DNA of 42,825 bases from a virus (IMGVR_UViG_3300045988_031260); one strand, 5' to 3'; positions 1 to 42,825 are shown, counted from the first letter of the stretch. Made by a program: numbers and translations. Notes: a model not told the origin generated them from the sequence alone.

Positions 1-99
1 ATCGAATTAATATCACAATATACTGTATTTTGCAAAGCGGCTTACGCCTTTTAAGCAGGGTGTCTGGGGTTCGAATCCCCAACGGGGCACCAAAAAAGC
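1..99. repeat. Left copy of an exact 99-bp terminal direct repeat. It implies a circular unit of 42,726 bp, or an att-flanked element cut at the repeat.
   Basis: Bases 1-99 are identical to 42727-42825, and the repeat runs to the last base of the window. Confidence 0.95.
46..92 (+). other. 3' portion of a tRNA-Lys(UUU) gene, probably the attP core
   Basis: Anticodon loop CTTTTAA, 3' anticodon stem GCAGG, variable loop GTGTC, T-arm TGGGG/TTCGAAT/CCCCA, acceptor 3' strand ACGGGGC, discriminator A and CCA. No complementary 5' acceptor (GCCCCGT) or D-arm upstream, so this is a fragment. Confidence 0.8.
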
Positions 100-136: not shown

Positions 137-1231
137 TTACTTTTTATTTGTTAGTAACGTGTTAGTAACAGCATCCACAAGTGTCTGCGCGTCGATGTGC
201 GTATATATGTTTGCGGTGGTGGAATAATCGGCGTGTCCGAGTATTTTTTGGAGCATTTCCGGGGGCAATCCCTCTTTTACCGCCCGGGACGCGTATGTGT
301 GGCGTGTGGCGTGCGGGGTCTTTCGCACAATACCCAGCCTGTCAAGGAGCGGGTAAAAATCACGCCTGCGGAAGTTTGCTGGGACTTTTTGCCCATCGTA
401 GCCGGATAACAGTAGCTCCCCCGTTGCTTGCTTCGCAAAGTAGGCAAAGTATTGTTTCCCCTCCGGTCGAATGGGGATAATTCGGTTTCTGCCTGCTTCG
501 GTTTTCTCCCCGCCTACAACATAGTCTCCGTGATAGTCTGCCAGAGGTAGGGAAAACAATTCCCCGATACGCATACCCGTTGCCAGCAGCATCAAGACAA
601 TTTTTGCCGAATCGCTGTTATCGGATTCCAATTTACGGATATCTTCCACCGTGAAGATGTCCTTTTCTTTTTTGACATTTTCCGGCAAGCGCACAAACTT
701 AGCAAAATTTGTCGTGCATATTTCCTCCCGGATGGCCCAGTTCGACATCTGCGTTATGAGCTGCTTGTACTTATTCACGGTGGAATGGCTCTTGCTCATG
801 TGCGGGTCAAGTGCGGCCTGAAAGTCTGCGGTGCGAAGGTCACGGAACTTTCTGCTATGCAATGGAGCAAATACCTTGTAAGCCGTGTTATAGGAATCAA
901 TCCCCTGCTTGCCGATCTCCTTGTAATGCTCCTCTTTCCACGCATCAAAGACTTCAGCAAAGGTCATGTTGTACCTATCCGTTAAACTCTTGCCGTTCAG
1001 CCGCTCCAAAGCGTCCAGAGCGTCTGTCTTGCGCTCATAGTACCCAATGACCACCTTGTTCTTTGCAGCCACCCACGGCTTTTTCCTGCGGCCTGACAGC
1101 TTGTATACCGTACCGGTTCCGTTCGCTCTTTTTAGTGCCTTGCGCTTTTCTGCCAACTGCTTTTTGCCGCACAAATGGCAGTAAATAGCATTTTCGGCAA
1201 GCTCTGCCCCGCATTTCATGCAATTTTCCAT
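137..1231 (-). CDS. int: Tyrosine recombinase / phage integrase with N-terminal zinc ribbon
   Basis: C-terminal HATRHTYAS...LGHADYSTTANIYTH matches the R..HxxR..Y catalytic signature. N-terminal CMKCG..CHLCG. Start placed at ATG 1231 with AAGGGG upstream; the ORF track extends to 1276. Confidence 0.92.
   Translation of the reverse strand: MENCMKCGAELAENAIYCHLCGKKQLAEKRKALKRANGTGTVYKLSGRRKKPWVAAKNKVVIGYYERKTDALDALERLNGKSLTDRYNMTFAEVFDAWKEEHYKEIGKQGIDSYNTAYKVFAPLHSRKFRDLRTADFQAALDPHMSKSHSTVNKYKQLITQMSNWAIREEICTTNFAKFVRLPENVKKEKDIFTVEDIRKLESDNSDSAKIVLMLLATGMRIGELFSLPLADYHGDYVVGGEKTEAGRNRIIPIRPEGKQYFAYFAKQATGELLLSGYDGQKVPANFRRRDFYPLLDRLGIVRKTPHATRHTYASRAVKEGLPPEMLQKILGHADYSTTANIYTHIDAQTLVDAVTNTLLTNKK
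147..169 (+). repeat. Two tandem GTTAGTAAC copies 11 bp apart; candidate integrase arm-type sites (P' arm)
   Basis: GTTAGTAAC at 150-158 and 161-169. TTTGTTAGTAAC at 147-158 recurs at 42650-42661 on the other side of the core. Confidence 0.45.
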
Positions 1232-1235
1232 TGTA

Positions 1236-1790
1236 TCACCCCTTCGATTTGCGAACCATAGAAACGAGAACAGCAAGTGTAATGGCGCTGCTGGCTATCA
1301 GCACCGCAATAAGCACCCATGCAAACACGCTTGCAACCCCACCACGAATCAGGCCCATATTTGCCGTTTTGAAGTCGAGAAACACATACACCGCCAGTAG
1401 AAGCATAACAATTACAAGGGCGGATATGGTAACATATATAACCCGCTGCTGTGATTTGATTCTCTTGTGCTGCAGGTCGATGGTCTGGGCCATGCTTTCC
1501 ACATTGCCCTCCAGATGTGCCGCCTTTAACTCCGCTTCTCTGTTTTGCTGCATTTCTTCAAGCCGCTTTTCTGCAGGAACATCTTCTTCGATCCCGAAAT
1601 ATCTATCCAGCGATACCCCCAGTACAGCACAAATGTCACCGGCGTTGTACACGCTGGGCGATTTGGACGCTGTGGCGAAGAAATTGTTGATGGTGGAAAT
1701 GGAGATTCCGGTTTCGTCAGATAGCTTTTGCGTGGTGATTCCCTTCCTGATTTTTGCGTCCTTGCAAATGTCGCGTAGTGTCGGATTCAT
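1236..1790 (-). CDS. Membrane-anchored XRE-family HTH protein
   Basis: N-terminal HTH (ITTQKLSDETGISISTINNF), central coiled segment and two C-terminal hydrophobic helices. ATG 1790 preceded by GGGGGA. Confidence 0.75.
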   Translation of the reverse strand: MNPTLRDICKDAKIRKGITTQKLSDETGISISTINNFFATASKSPSVYNAGDICAVLGVSLDRYFGIEEDVPAEKRLEEMQQNREAELKAAHLEGNVESMAQTIDLQHKRIKSQQRVIYVTISALVIVMLLLAVYVFLDFKTANMGLIRGGVASVFAWVLIAVLIASSAITLAVLVSMVRKSKG

Positions 1791-3147: not shown

Positions 3148-3341
3148 TTAAGACGATGACGATGCAAGAGTGCATGGATCACCTTCGGGCGCATGGACTG
3201 AGCATTTCGCAAGACACGCTGTCGAACGGCCTGGAGCAGGGTGTGTACCCCTTCGGCGTGTGCATCAACGGAGGCAAGCGGCGGGTGTTTCAGATTTTCG
3301 CCCGGCTGCTGGACAAGTGGATCGAGGAGAGAGAGGAGTAA
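3144..3341 (+). CDS. Small DNA-binding protein, excisionase-like (putative)
   Basis: 65 aa, start overlaps the upstream stop, AGGAGGA RBS. Winged-helix-like pattern ending VFQIFARLLDKWIEE. Confidence 0.5.
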   Translation: MIKTMTMQECMDHLRAHGLSISQDTLSNGLEQGVYPFGVCINGGKRRVFQIFARLLDKWIEEREE

Positions 3342-16728: not shown

Positions 16729-17190
16729 ATGAGCAAAAAATACACACTTCCTGCAGATGTGCGCCTTGAGTGCATCGCCTATGTCAGAGGCTATCCCCGG
16801 AGGGTAAAGGCATACAACGATGCGCGGAACGAGATTCTATACGGCAGCAAGAGTGCGGACGGTATGCCCCACTCCCCCGGCATTGGTAGGCCAGCAGAGG
16901 GCAAGGCGGAACAGCTTGCGGACATAGAAAACTGGGCGGAAACCAAGAAAATGCGGGCTGTAGAATACGCCATAGACCGCTGCGGGCGGGGTTTGGAGAG
17001 TGAGAGCATCCGTAAACAGCTTACACAGGGGATCATGCGCAACTGTCAGGGCAAGCACAAGTATTCCCGCAATAGGATTATCGTGCCGGGGATAAGCGAG
17101 CGGACATTCAGCCGGAGGAAAGAGCAATTTCTCTATGACATAGCCATATATTGTGGTTTTGCAGAGAAAGTTGGCACAAATTCCACCTAA
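16729..17190 (+). CDS. RinA/ArpU-like late-gene transcriptional regulator (putative)
   Basis: Position just upstream of the packaging module. C-terminal HTH-like GISERTFSRRKEQFLYDIAIYCG. Confidence 0.5.
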   Translation: MSKKYTLPADVRLECIAYVRGYPRRVKAYNDARNEILYGSKSADGMPHSPGIGRPAEGKAEQLADIENWAETKKMRAVEYAIDRCGRGLESESIRKQLTQGIMRNCQGKHKYSRNRIIVPGISERTFSRRKEQFLYDIAIYCGFAEKVGTNST

Positions 17191-17428
17191 TGATGTGCTA
17201 CAATAGGTACAGTGGATGATAAGGAATAGTCATCCACCCGTCTTTCCACTCAACCCGTTTCCTCCATCTTATGCGCCGCCGGTATTGGGCGCACCTTCTG
17301 GCACCGAAAGGTCATACCGGCACAAACAGCCTGTAGGGAAACCTATGGGCTGTTGTCATATGCCGTGCGCTCGTTGCACCCCACGATCAGGGGCGGGAGG
17401 TCGCACCTCCCACACGGCACCTATATAT

Positions 17429-17521
17429 GCAGGTGTAGCTCAGTCGGTAGAGCTTTATCGCACGAAGGGATATGCGATTGAATGCCCTTGGTCGCTGGTT
17501 CGAGTCCAGCCGCCTGCGCCA
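17429..17521 (+). tRNA. tRNA-like element with canonical acceptor, D and T arms and encoded CCA, but a non-canonical 40-nt central region (isotype undetermined)
   Basis: Acceptor GCAGGTG/CGCCTGC, D-arm GCTC-AGTCGGTA-GAGC, T-arm GCTGG-TTCGAGT-CCAGC and GCCA end. The region 17454-17493 does not fold as a 5-bp/7-nt anticodon arm. Confidence 0.6.
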
Positions 17522-17915
17522 AACTCTAAACGGAGTCACCAACGGAGTATAAACAAGTGGGGCAACCGTGGAAACCGGGCATATATGCGGCATAGGCGCC
17601 CCGTAAGGGGAGGACACAGCGAGTGACGGGGACTTTCCCCGAAGCGCTAAAGCAGGGCAGGACTGCAATGCCGCACCAACCACACAAGCGGGCGAGGAAG
17701 CGCGAGAAGTTAAGCGCACACAAGCTGTGGCCACAGCGACGGACAGTTAATCCGCAAAAACAGTGTGCGGCTGACGAAAAGGCGCAGCGCGGTGTGGTGC
17801 CGAAATAACTGTGTAACCCATGTTTGAGAGCTTCCAGAAGGCCGCATGGGAGGGGAAAGACTGTTACTGTAGCCAAGGGGTGGGGGCTGGTGACAAACAA
17901 GGAGGAAAAACGACT

Positions 17916-21018: not shown

Positions 21019-21265
21019 TATAAGATATACAATAATGTTATTGTGACATTGTGCATTATGCCCATTGCGGTATACCTGTGTGGGACAAGTGGGGCAAGCT
21101 TCTGCGGCTCTCGATCTCCGGCGGGAATGACCGGGGGCGGGGGATATGCGGCGTCAGCCGGGGGCGGGGTAAGCCCCAAAAATCCCGCAAAAAATAAAAA
21201 GCCATTTTTGCCCCATGTTGTAAAATCCGGCAAAAACAAAAGGACTATTTTGGGCATAAAACATA

Positions 21266-21294
21266 TTGACACAAATTATGCTGTGTGCTACACT
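21266..21294 (+). promoter_or_regulatory. Promoter of the serine recombinase gene
   Basis: TTGACA, a 17-nt spacer ending TGc, then TACACT. Confidence 0.6.
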
Positions 21295-21327
21295 ACCCTT
21301 ACAAGATGCAGGAAGGGAGCGATGCAC

Positions 21328-21915
21328 ATGAAAGTCGGATATATCCGGGTGTCCACGGAGGAGCAGAACACAATCCGCCAAGAGGTAATTATGCAAGACC
21401 TTGGAGTTGAGCGTGTCTACATTGACAAGGCCAGCGGGAAAAGCCGTACAGGCAGGCCGCAGCTGGAGGCAATGATGGATTTCGTCCGAGAGGGCGATGT
21501 GGTCATTGTTGAGAGCATCAGCCGGTTTGCGAGAAGCACGAGGGACTTGTTGACGCTGGTAGAACAGCTTACAGACAAAGGTGTGGGTTTTGTATCGCAG
21601 AAGGAATCCATTGACACGAACACGCCACAGGGCAAGTTCATGCTTACGGTGTTTGGCGCAATGGCGGAGCTGGAACGGGAGCAGACCTTACAGCGGCAGA
21701 GAGAAGGAATTGCGGCTGCAAAAGCGGCTGGGAAGTACAAAGGCCGTCAGCCGATAGCAATCAGCGATGATCTGCTTAAAACGGTGCATGAGCAGTGGTA
21801 CAAGAACGAAATTACCACGGCCTATGCGGTTAAGCGGCTGGGTGTAAGCCGGAACACCTTTTACCGCCGGATGTGGGACTACGAGGATTCCGCAGGGATT
21901 CCGAGACGGCGCTGA
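21328..21915 (+). CDS. Small serine recombinase (resolvase/invertase family) with C-terminal HTH
   Basis: MKVGYIRVSTEEQ catalytic-serine motif, VIVESISRFARS, FGAMAELEREQ and C-terminal AVKRLGVSRNTFYRR. Confidence 0.92.
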   Translation: MKVGYIRVSTEEQNTIRQEVIMQDLGVERVYIDKASGKSRTGRPQLEAMMDFVREGDVVIVESISRFARSTRDLLTLVEQLTDKGVGFVSQKESIDTNTPQGKFMLTVFGAMAELEREQTLQRQREGIAAAKAAGKYKGRQPIAISDDLLKTVHEQWYKNEITTAYAVKRLGVSRNTFYRRMWDYEDSAGIPRRR

Positions 21916-42726: not shown

Positions 42727-42825
42727 ATCGAATTAATATCACAATATACTGTATTTTGCAAAGCGGCTTACGCCTTTTAAGCAGGGTGTCTGGGGTTCGA
42801 ATCCCCAACGGGGCACCAAAAAAGC
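42727..42825. repeat. Right copy of the 99-bp terminal direct repeat
   Basis: Identical to 1-99. True repeat length cannot be judged because the window ends here. Confidence 0.95.
42772..42818 (+). other. Second copy of the tRNA-Lys(UUU) 3' fragment, inside the terminal repeat
   Basis: Same sequence as 46-92. Confidence 0.8.

What the first reader, a model, noticed from the sequence alone, without database searches (positions are those of the whole stretch)
17429..17521. tRNA-like element whose anticodon arm is replaced by a 40-nt segment that can form an H-type pseudoknot
The acceptor stem (7 bp, one G-T), D-arm, T-arm (TTCGAGT loop), discriminator and encoded CCA are textbook. The 40 nt between the D and T arms (17454-17493) cannot form a 5-bp stem with a 7-nt loop.

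Two interleaved helices are possible instead: ATCGCA/TGCGAT (17457-17462/17473-17478) and AAGGG/CCCTT (17465-17469/17485-17489).

The total length (93 nt) would suit a class II tRNA, but no convincing long variable arm or U33-containing anticodon loop is present. The candidate loops CACGAAG and ATTGAAT are both irregular. It could be an unusual, intron-bearing or degenerate tRNA. It could also be a tRNA mimic, for example a processing signal, a decoy for tRNA-targeting defences, or a primer or handle.
Basis: partly seen in the sequence, partly recalled or inferred. Interest (0 to 1): 0.75.

Follow-up and report, generated by a model that had tools for sequence, protein, structure and literature searches.

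The report
Phage tRNA look-alike with a pseudoknot
A gut phage carries a gene that looks like a tRNA in every respect except that its anticodon arm is replaced by a small, evolutionarily conserved RNA knot, so it almost certainly cannot decode; the same design recurs in about a hundred phage and metagenome loci and has not been described.

Summary
Window 17429-17521(+) has a textbook acceptor stem, D arm, T arm, discriminator and CCA. The 40 nt between the D and T arms hold two interleaved helices, S1 and S2.

ARAGORN calls it tRNA-Val(cac), but only by forcing a poor stem. Its call flips between Val, Thr, Ser, Ala, Leu and "???" among homologues. The Rfam tRNA model matches only by skipping the anticodon arm.

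Pattern scans recovered about 110 loci holding the same design on at least 13 different tRNA scaffolds. There are 14 different S1 sequences, each complementary to its partner. S2 occurs in three compensated versions. The loops AUA and UGAAUR are conserved. Both helices are therefore under selection, and the pseudoknot is real.

No single excision restores an anticodon arm. The discriminator base varies, and CCA is encoded in only 13 of 44 distinct sequences.

It is best read as a non-decoding tRNA mimic that uses the tRNA maturation pathway and acts through its conserved pseudoknot. What the pseudoknot binds is unknown; a decoy or inhibitor role is inferred, not shown.

Related phages carry other unrelated arm modules at the same site. 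No Rfam family or paper found describes it.

The parts
17429..17435 (+). Acceptor stem, 5' strand (GCAGGTG)
   Evidence: Pairs with 17511-17517. All 7 pairs show compensatory changes across 20 diverse family members.
17438..17453 (+). D arm (GCTC / AGTCGGTA / GAGC) with G18 G19
   Evidence: The stem and G18/G19 are invariant in alignment A4. The 3' strand GAGC was fixed by the search patterns.
17454..17456 (+). UUU linker between the D stem and S1
   Evidence: Present in all members. It was fixed in the search patterns, except where the centre was left free.
17457..17462 (+). Pseudoknot helix S1, 5' strand (ATCGCA)
   Evidence: Pairs with 17473-17478. Fourteen different S1 5' strands each match their partner. 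The four core pairs are 100% paired with 2-5 pair types. The two outer pairs are weak.
17463..17464 (+). Loop L1 (CG), variable
17465..17469 (+). Pseudoknot helix S2, 5' strand (AAGGG)
   Evidence: Pairs with 17485-17489. Versions AAGGG/CCCTT, AAAGG/CCTTT and AATGG/CCATT occur.
17470..17472 (+). Loop L2 (ATA), conserved
   Evidence: Kept in all 42 IMG/VR hits when left free in the pattern.
17473..17478 (+). Pseudoknot helix S1, 3' strand (TGCGAT)
17479..17484 (+). Loop L3 (TGAATG), conserved as TGAAT(R)
   Evidence: Kept in all 42 IMG/VR hits when left free in the pattern. Variants TGAATG, TGAATA and TGAATT occur.
17485..17489 (+). Pseudoknot helix S2, 3' strand (CCCTT)
17490..17493 (+). Variable-loop-like linker (GGTC) to the T stem
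   Evidence: G-R-Y-(N), 3-4 nt, across the family.
17494..17510 (+). T arm (GCTGG / TTCGAGT / CCAGC)
   Evidence: Four of the 5 stem pairs are compensated across the family; T54, T55, C56 and A58 are invariant.
17511..17517 (+). Acceptor stem, 3' strand (CGCCTGC)
17518..17521 (+). Discriminator G plus encoded CCA
   Evidence: Across 44 distinct family sequences the discriminator is A 25, U 12, G 5, C 2, and CCA is encoded in 13.
17196..17204 (+). Extended -10-like TGCTACAAT just after the activator ORF stop; likely start of the late-operon leader that carries the element (inferred)
   Evidence: Read directly from the sequence and conserved in relatives L031-L110. The consensus scanner did not list it because there is no -35.
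17362..17421 (+). Neighbouring structured module U2 (GCCGTG...CACGGC-ACC with hairpins CCCC/GGGG and GGGAGG/CCTCCC)
   Evidence: Read directly from the sequence. L002 has GCCGCATG...CATGCGGC and GAGAGG/CCTCTC, which are compensatory. Not analysed formally.
17587..17678 (+). Neighbouring module M2: 92-nt cloverleaf-like RNA with a 7-bp terminal stem and ACCA
   Evidence: 23 variants. The consensus fold has 4 compensated pairs. No Rfam or ARAGORN match.

Best explanation
It is a gene for a small, stable, non-decoding tRNA mimic.

Shown:
- The RNA keeps a complete tRNA 'top half' and core: a 7-bp acceptor stem, a D arm with G18 G19, and a T arm with the T-loop.
- The anticodon arm is replaced by a conserved 33-nt module made of two interleaved helices. 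S1 can take any sequence as long as it pairs. S2 is AA.GG/CC.UU. The loops AUA and UGAAUR are conserved.
- The same module sits on many unrelated tRNA scaffolds in many phages.

Inferred:
- The tRNA part makes the transcript a substrate for RNase P, for RNase Z or 3' exonucleases, and for the CCA-adding enzyme. This cuts it out of the long leader of the late operon (or out of tRNA arrays in other phages) and stabilises it.
- It cannot present an anticodon, so it does not decode.
- The sequence-conserved face of the pseudoknot (S2, L2, L3) is the working part. It binds a conserved partner.
- The most likely partner is a host factor that handles the anticodon arm of tRNAs, such as an anticodon-arm nuclease of a defence system. 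The RNA would then act as a decoy or inhibitor.

The identity of the partner is a guess. The confidence given covers the whole statement. The 'what it is' part alone I would put near 0.9, and the decoy mechanism alone near 0.3.
For: tRNA top half:
- Rfam tRNA model 45.3 bits, with all of the acceptor, D and T arms aligned.
- Compensatory changes in 7/7 acceptor pairs and 4/5 T-stem pairs across 20 members on different scaffolds.

Not a decoder:
- ARAGORN's fold is non-canonical.
- Its anticodon call differs among homologues.
- Rfam skips the arm.
- No single excision restores an arm.
- The only arm-like reading has a pyrimidine at position 37.
- The discriminator varies (A/U/G/C) and acceptor pairs vary.

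The pseudoknot is selected:
- Chance is 0.16-0.18%.
- There are 14 S1 versions, all complementary, and 3 compensated S2 versions.
- Both loops are retained when left free in searches.
- A covariance model scores the window copy 104.5 bits, against 53 bits or less for ordinary tRNAs.

Acts in trans rather than through neighbours:
- No protein neighbour is shared across lineages.
- The element sits in arrays of canonical tRNAs in L499 and L496.
- No antisense target longer than 9 nt exists in the phage genome.

Arms-race flavour:
- 80 close relatives carry at least 7 unrelated arm modules, or none, at the same slot.

Background: defence nucleases that cut the tRNA anticodon arm, and phage tRNAs that counter them, are documented (PMC11464382, PMC11555353, PMC10264068, PMC13056530).
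Against: - There is no expression, processing or binding data.
- No partner is identified, and no defence or tRNA-handling gene is linked to the element.
- The host is unknown. Portal relatives point only to Bacillota phages.
- The conserved loop nucleotides outside the gut-phage group were partly fixed by my own search patterns, so their invariance is only partly tested.
- A coaxial S1-S2 stack would put its two ends roughly 28-30 A apart, while the linkers to the tRNA core are only 3 and 3-4 nt. The real 3D arrangement is therefore unknown, and both helices may not form at the same time (my inference from helix geometry).
- Energies of S1-only, S2-only and a nested alternative are similar.
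Confidence: 0.55

Rival explanations
1. Processing punctuation only. The tRNA-like body serves as an RNase P / RNase Z cleavage signal that cuts the long late-operon leader. The arm module is just a stable filler with no function of its own.
For: - The element lies in a roughly 630-725-nt untranslated stretch. Upstream is the ArpU/RinA-like activator ORF (16729-17190). Downstream are the ORF before terS and terS itself.
- An extended -10 lies upstream.
- Neighbouring modules U2 and M2 also end in ACC(A) and are preceded by U at -1.
- Many copies lack an encoded CCA, as RNase Z substrates do.
- The arm is swapped freely among relatives.
Against: - A filler would not keep the same S2, AUA and UGAAUR on 13 or more unrelated scaffolds in unrelated phages.
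- A filler would not be maintained inside arrays of ordinary tRNAs, where processing signals are already abundant.
Confidence: 0.17
2. A real, chargeable tRNA with an embellished anticodon arm. S2 (AAGGG/CCCUU) is the anticodon stem in the normal register. U51-G52A53A54-U55-R56 is the 3' part of an anticodon loop with anticodon GAA (Phe). S1 is a clamp made of two complementary insertions that masks or regulates it.
For: - S2 is 5 bp and is followed by a 3-4-nt variable loop and the T stem, as in class I tRNAs.
- The conserved UGAAU next to the S2 3' strand resembles U33 plus GAA plus positions 37-38.
- A is the commonest discriminator (25/44).
- The gene sits among canonical tRNAs in some phages.
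Against: - Position 37 would be U in every member. A purine is near-universal there (established tRNA knowledge).
- There is no position 32.
- A helix is attached to the 5' side of the loop.
- The discriminator is U, G or C in 19/44, and acceptor pairs vary freely. No single synthetase identity is therefore conserved.
- ARAGORN and Rfam cannot build an anticodon arm.
Confidence: 0.08
3. A ligand- or signal-sensing aptamer carried on a tRNA scaffold. The two helices are alternative states of a switch.
For: - It is a compact H-type fold with conserved loops, like small riboswitch aptamers.
- S1-only and S2-only folds have similar energies.
- The steric strain of forming both helices within a tRNA core (my inference).
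Against: - No match to any Rfam riboswitch, even at E up to 10.
- No expression platform or regulated gene is consistently next to it.
Confidence: 0.07
4. A decaying tRNA pseudogene, or a DNA-level site such as an attachment or recombination site.
For: - Arm modules are exchanged between nearly identical flanks. This suggests recombination through the conserved D- and T-arm sequences.
- tRNA-Gln in L001 shares the same T arm and acceptor 3' end.
Against: - Compensatory substitutions in all four variable helices show selection on RNA pairing.
- The phage's real attP lies elsewhere. A tRNA-Lys(UUU)-like 3' half at window 45-92 sits next to the integrase gene at 137-1276(-).
Confidence: 0.03

Closest known systems
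Phage-encoded tRNAs that escape anticodon-directed defence nucleases (PARIS AriB, retron Ec78 PtuAB, PrrC, bacterial Schlafen): PMC11464382, PMC11555353, PMC10264068, PMC13056530
   Same: - It is a phage gene with a full tRNA body, placed in tRNA-gene positions.
- The altered part is the anticodon arm, which is what these nucleases cut.
   Different: - Those are decoding tRNAs with point changes in a normal 7-nt loop.
- Here the whole arm is replaced by a pseudoknot and no anticodon can be defined.
- No link to any defence system was shown here.
Viral tRNA-like RNAs used as processing or stability handles: murine gammaherpesvirus 68 vtRNAs, and mascRNA of MALAT1 (from my own knowledge; PMC12680231 and PMC12941219 touch on them)
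   Same: - They are tRNA-shaped and non-decoding.
- They are matured by RNase P, RNase Z and CCA addition.
   Different: - Those are eukaryotic or viral Pol III / lncRNA contexts with a shortened ordinary hairpin as the arm.
- Here the element is in bacteriophages and has a sequence-conserved pseudoknot.
Plant-virus 3' tRNA-like structures (TYMV-type TLS-Val, TLS-His; PMC7749636, PMC8127992)
   Same: - It is a viral tRNA mimic that contains an H-type pseudoknot.
   Different: - In a TLS the pseudoknot builds the acceptor arm at the 3' end of an RNA genome, and an anticodon arm is present.
- Here the acceptor stem is ordinary, the pseudoknot replaces the anticodon arm, and the element is an internal gene of a DNA phage.
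Pseudoknot I of dicistrovirus intergenic IRES, a mimic of an anticodon stem-loop paired to a codon (from my own knowledge)
   Same: - The topology matches: a stem (S1), 2-3 loop nucleotides, a loop segment paired to a downstream strand (S2), then the stem's 3' strand and a linker.
   Different: - The IRES has no acceptor, D or T arms, and its pseudoknot has a known role on the ribosome.
- Nothing here shows ribosome binding. The resemblance is topological only.
Pseudo-tRNAs of bacteria and phages: Bacillus cereus tRNA-Other, and the small stable RNAs in the T4 tRNA cluster (from my own knowledge)
   Same: - These are tRNA-like genes among tRNA genes.
- They are poorly charged or uncharged, and their function is regulatory or unknown.
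   Different: - Those keep a hairpin-type anticodon arm or lack tRNA arms altogether.
- None is known to carry a conserved pseudoknot module shared across scaffolds.
Type III toxin-antitoxin antitoxin RNAs (ToxI, CptI) and phage pseudo-ToxI mimics (from my own knowledge)
   Same: - A small RNA pseudoknot serves as a protein-neutralising unit.
- Phages are known to copy such RNAs to escape abortive infection.
   Different: - Those are tandem repeats processed by the toxin, with no tRNA body.
- There is no sequence match (Rfam), no repeats, and no toxin gene nearby.

Membership tests
Canonical tRNA (Rfam RF00005) | 7-bp acceptor stem, D arm with G18 G19, T arm with T-loop, discriminator | tested here: met
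   There is covariation in the acceptor and T stems.
Canonical tRNA (Rfam RF00005) | 5-bp anticodon stem with a 7-nt loop (U33, purine 37) in the normal register | tested here: not met
   The ARAGORN drawing shows a poor stem and G33. Rfam jumps over 34 nt. The only 5-bp stem in register leaves a 15-nt loop.
Canonical tRNA (Rfam RF00005) | The same anticodon and identity elements in orthologues | tested here: not met
   Calls are Val, Thr, Ser, Ala, Leu and ??? for homologues. The discriminator is A/U/G/C.
Canonical tRNA (Rfam RF00005) | Aminoacylation and decoding on the ribosome | not testable with these tools
   This needs charging and ribosome assays.
Intron-containing tRNA (archaeal bulge-helix-bulge type or group I intron) | Removing one contiguous segment gives a canonical anticodon arm | tested here: not met
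   No solution with at least 4/5 stem pairs over all contiguous deletions. ARAGORN intron mode gives the same intron-less call. At 17-18 extra nt it is far too short for a group I intron.
Class II tRNA (Leu/Ser/Tyr type) | Normal anticodon arm plus a self-paired long variable arm | tested here: not met
   There is no hairpin in 17479-17493. That strand pairs back into the enlarged loop instead.
H-type RNA pseudoknot | Two interleaved helices, each supported by compensatory changes | tested here: met
   S1 has 5 of 6 pairs with double changes, and S2 has 1 of 5 (the other four were fixed by the search pattern). There are 14 S1 versions. Whether the two helices coexist and stack coaxially was not testable.
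tmRNA | tRNA-like domain plus tag reading frame | tested here: not met
   ARAGORN tmRNA search finds none. The element is 93 nt with no ORF.
Y RNA-like YrlA (RF02553) | Match to the family model | tested here: not met
   14.3 bits against a gathering score of 69.
Known pseudoknot riboswitches, small ribozymes and ToxI-type antitoxins in Rfam | Match to any Rfam 15 model at E up to 10 | tested here: not met
   No such family is listed for 17100-17900.
Phage attachment site within a tRNA gene | Partial tRNA (3' half) next to the integrase gene | tested here: not met
   That site is at window 45-92 beside the integrase at 137-1276(-). The element at 17.4 kb is a full-length tRNA body far from the integrase.

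The most novel reading that the evidence does not exclude
Phages carry a previously unrecognised class of 'tRNA-scaffolded' functional RNAs. A conserved tRNA top half provides processing and stability, and interchangeable arm modules act as effectors. The pseudoknot family described here would be one such effector. It would be an RNA decoy or inhibitor that neutralises a host tRNA-directed immune nuclease or another anticodon-arm-binding factor.
Probability: 0.25. Interest if true: 0.85.

Novelty: new variant of a known kind. Interest (0 to 1): 0.72.

Why it matters
- **Annotation.** tRNA finders label these genes with arbitrary or '???' anticodons, so phage tRNA counts and codon-usage analyses are contaminated.
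- **A well-defined new RNA family.** It is about 90 nt, has five covarying helices and conserved loops, is found in about 110 loci, and matches no Rfam model. It is small enough for immediate structural and biochemical work.
- **Biology.** It shows that phages reuse the tRNA body as a carrier for other RNA modules. At one slot of the late leader, close relatives swap at least seven such modules. That pattern is typical of loci under conflict with the host.
- **If it is a decoy.** If the pseudoknot proves to be a decoy for anticodon-arm nucleases, it would be an RNA-only counter-defence of a new type.

Tried and rejected
- **Intron reading.** An exhaustive single-deletion test and ARAGORN -i found nothing.
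- **Nested long-hairpin alternative (the minimum-free-energy fold).** Its distal pairs fail. Pair 45:54 is broken in 6 of 18 sequences, and it conflicts with the well-supported S1.
- **A 2-bp extension of S2 (34:64, 35:63).** It is pair-compatible in 18-19 of 20 sequences but shows only one-sided changes. It remains unproven.
- **An apparent C35-G56 / U35-A56 covariation among the first homologues.** L181 (C35, U56) contradicts it.
- **Antisense target in the phage genome.** The longest complement is 9 nt, which is chance level.
- **Conserved protein partner next to the element.** None is shared across lineages.
- **Rfam at permissive thresholds.** Only tRNA matched.
- **GenBank phage records.** Only one unannotated metagenomic record, MT836871, holds it.
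- **Host identification.** Exact-protein look-up found only free phage-sized contigs of 50 kb or less.
- **Pseudoknots as a general feature of long-centre phage tRNA-likes.** They are not: 4 of 112 against 1.4 expected, and one of the four is this family.
- **Literature searches for a description.** None was found.
- **First metagenome scan, forcing a change at S1 position 31.** It found nothing.

Full report
**1. What is at the coordinates**

Window 17429-17521(+) reads:

GCAGGTG-TA-GCTC-AGTCGGTA-GAGC-TTT-ATCGCA-CG-AAGGG-ATA-TGCGAT-TGAATG-CCCTT-GGTC-GCTGG-TTCGAGT-CCAGC-CGCCTGC-G-CCA.

So are the two interleaved complementarities: 17457-17462 with 17473-17478, and 17465-17469 with 17485-17489. 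Interleaved perfect helices of at least 6 and 5 bp appear in only 0.16-0.18% of shuffled 40-mers.

**2. The tRNA detectors**

- ARAGORN reports tRNA-Val(cac). Its drawing has an anticodon stem of t-a, t+g, t+g, a.g, t-a, G at position 33, and 23 unpaired nucleotides as the 'variable arm'. Switching on intron search changes nothing.
- The Rfam tRNA model scores 45.3 bits, but only with a local jump over 34 nt where 17 are expected.
- Two ordinary phage tRNAs in a related contig score 65.8 and 60.0 bits with full alignment.
- Among homologues that differ by a few bases, ARAGORN's call changes to Thr(cgt), Ser(cga), Ala(cgc), Ser(tga), Leu or '???'.
- No single excision from positions 26-65 restores even a 4/5-paired anticodon stem.

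The element is tRNA-like but has no anticodon arm.

**3. Homologues and covariation**

Sources of homologues:
- One GenBank metagenomic phage record, MT836871, holds a copy.
- An exact 19-mer scan of IMG/VR gave 26 true copies.
- A scaffold-anchored scan with a free centre gave 39 loci, all with the same centre.
- A metagenome scan that left S1 free, and further IMG/VR scans, gave diverged members on quite different tRNA bodies.

In all, about 110 fetched loci hold a member. Some loci overlap the same contig. There are 44 distinct sequences and 27 distinct centres.

Helix S1:
- It occurs in 14 versions, including ATCGC/GCGAT, ATAGC/GCTAT, ACAGC/GCTGT, ATGGC/GCCAT, GACTG/CAGTC, GGCGA/TCGCC, GGTGA/TCACC, GTGC/GCAC, TGGC/GCCA, CGGC/GCCG and CGGT/ACCG. 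Each version is complementary to its partner.
- On a 20-sequence alignment, the four core S1 pairs are paired in every sequence, with 2-5 pair types.
- The two outer S1 pairs are weak.

Helix S2:
- It is paired in every sequence.
- Its middle pair occurs as G-C, A-U and U-A.

Other helices on the same alignment:
- The acceptor stem has compensatory changes in 7/7 pairs.
- The T stem has them in 4/5 pairs.

Alternatives:
- The nested alternative predicted by energy minimisation loses its distal pairs in a third of sequences.
- A possible 2-bp extension of S2 (34:64, 35:63) is compatible with the data but unproven.

Loop conservation:
- Patterns that freed L2 or L3 returned the same 42 IMG/VR loci, all with AUA and UGAAU.
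- Both loops are therefore conserved at least in the three lineages sampled there.
- Outside those lineages their invariance is partly imposed by my search patterns.

A covariance model of the family scores the window copy 104.5 bits. Ordinary tRNAs in about 0.9 Mb of phage loci score 53 bits or less.

**4. Surroundings**

The window is a circular temperate siphovirus-like genome. Its ends overlap by 99 nt, giving 42,726 bp. Its genes include:
- a tyrosine integrase (137-1276, minus strand);
- repressors, Erf, SSB, RusA, methylases and a PAPS-reductase-like gene;
- an ArpU/RinA-like activator (16729-17190);
- small and large terminase and portal genes.

The attP core is a tRNA-Lys(UUU)-like 3' half at 45-92, next to the integrase. 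The element at 17.4 kb is therefore not the attachment site.

The element lies in a roughly 630-725-nt untranslated stretch between the activator gene and the ORF that precedes terS. It is downstream of an extended -10-like TGCTACAAT at 17196-17204.

The same stretch holds two more structured modules:
- U2 (17362-17421).
- M2 (17587-17678), a 92-nt cloverleaf with a 7-bp terminal stem and ACCA, and 4 compensated pairs.

Neither is known to Rfam.

**5. The slot is a cassette site**

I examined the 80 closest relatives by activator protein (82-99% identity). The same tRNA top half (GCAGGCGTAGCTCAGTCGG.TAGAGC ... GTCGCTGGTTCGAGTCCAGCC...) carries unrelated centres:

| Type | Loci | Centre |
|---|---|---|
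| G | 35 | 10-nt loop |
| B | 22 | long hairpin closed by AAAU |
| A | 7 | this pseudoknot |
| C | 4 | 9-nt loop |
| E | 1 | not characterised further |
| F | 1 | not characterised further |
| none | several | no tRNA-like element in the slot |

 A further type, D, is a near-canonical Gly(ccc) arm displaced by 2 nt; it comes from a GenBank record (L002), not from this set.

Rfam aligns none of these arms except type D, and does not detect types C and G at all. In L001-type phages, type A sits further downstream, between a canonical tRNA-Gln and tRNA-Trp. In unrelated larger phages it sits inside arrays of canonical tRNAs.

**6. How it most likely works**

Shown:
- The RNA-level structure is selected.
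- The tRNA core and elbow nucleotides are kept.
- The anticodon arm is absent.
- Identity elements are not conserved. The discriminator is A 25, U 12, G 5, C 2, and CCA is encoded in 13/44.
- There is no linked protein gene and no antisense target.

Inferred:
- The body recruits the tRNA maturation enzymes.
- The product is a stable small RNA that cannot decode.
- The sequence-conserved part of the pseudoknot binds something conserved in the host.

Several points make a decoy or inhibitor of an anticodon-arm-binding host factor my preferred mechanism, at modest confidence:
- S1 is free to change while S2, L2 and L3 are not.
- The module travels between scaffolds and phages.
- The slot shows cassette-like turnover.
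- Defence nucleases that cut the anticodon arm, and phage tRNAs that counter them, are documented (PMC11464382, PMC11555353, PMC10264068, PMC13056530).

A structural caveat follows from helix geometry. A coaxial S1-S2 stack has its ends about 28-30 A apart. The linkers to the core are UUU and G-R-Y-(N). The knot must therefore lie across the core or pack side by side, or the helices must alternate.

**7. Rivals**

- **Pure processing signal.** This fits the leader context but not the cross-lineage conservation of the knot.
- **Embellished tRNA-Phe-like decoder.** Here S2 is the anticodon stem and UGAAU is U33-GAA-37. The resemblance is striking, but position 37 would be U and identity elements vary.
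- **Ligand-sensing aptamer.** There is no Rfam match and no expression platform.
- **Pseudogene or DNA site.** This is contradicted by the covariation and by the separate attP.

**8. Novelty**

No Rfam family, no annotated phage record and no paper in the searchable library describes it. Viral tRNA mimics and pseudo-tRNAs are known kinds. A phage tRNA body whose anticodon arm is a conserved pseudoknot, shared across many scaffolds, is a new variant. The cassette-like slot suggests a broader class of tRNA-scaffolded phage RNAs.

Noticed in passing
window 17587-17678 (+): A second tRNA-shaped RNA (M2): a 7-bp terminal stem GCGGCAT/ATGCCGC followed by ACCA, with three internal hairpins. It is present in most relatives (23 variants) and has 4 compensated pairs. 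ARAGORN and Rfam do not find it.
   Followed up: partly
window 17362-17421 (+): A third module (U2): GCCGTG...CACGGC-ACC enclosing hairpins CCCC/GGGG and GGGAGG/CCTCCC. L002 has compensated versions (GCCGCATG/CATGCGGC, GAGAGG/CCTCTC). Each module in this leader is preceded by ...ATAT|G, which gives U at -1, as RNase P prefers.
   Followed up: partly
L031-L110, about 220-300 nt downstream of the activator gene (e.g. L054 3204-3283, L032 ~3240-3315, L053 3137-3220): The same tRNA top half carries at least seven unrelated 'anticodon arm' modules in closely related phages (types A, B, C, D, E, F, G), or is absent. Type B recurs on another scaffold (L302) with a G.U to G-C change in its stem.
   Followed up: partly
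window 45-92 (repeated at 42771-42818) beside integrase 137-1276(-): The attP core is the 3' half of a tRNA-Lys(UUU)-like gene, from the anticodon loop CTTTTAA to CCA. The window ends overlap by 99 nt, so the genome is circular at 42,726 bp.
   Followed up: partly
window 17196-17204 (+): An extended -10-like TGCTACAAT lies immediately after the ArpU/RinA-like activator ORF, with no recognisable -35. It is conserved in relatives and is probably the activator-dependent late promoter.
   Followed up: no
L126, L204, L218, L142, L244-L249, L288/L233, L545 928-1008 and about 100 other IMG/VR loci: Many unrelated phage contigs hold genes with a class-I-type D arm and T arm but 8-40 extra nucleotides in the middle. 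These include enlarged loops, long extra arms and recurring modules such as ...CCCTCAxGGTGAAGGxCC... in L288 and L233. They look like further families of non-canonical tRNA-like genes.
   Followed up: no
window 21043-21915 (+): A small serine recombinase (resolvase/invertase type, 290 aa) sits between the terS region and terL. This is unusual for a packaging module, and no invertible segment was looked for.
   Followed up: no
L462 3488-4731: One otherwise near-identical phage has two extra genes (185 aa, and a 215-aa Phage_pRha protein) inserted in the leader region that elsewhere holds only RNA modules.
   Followed up: no
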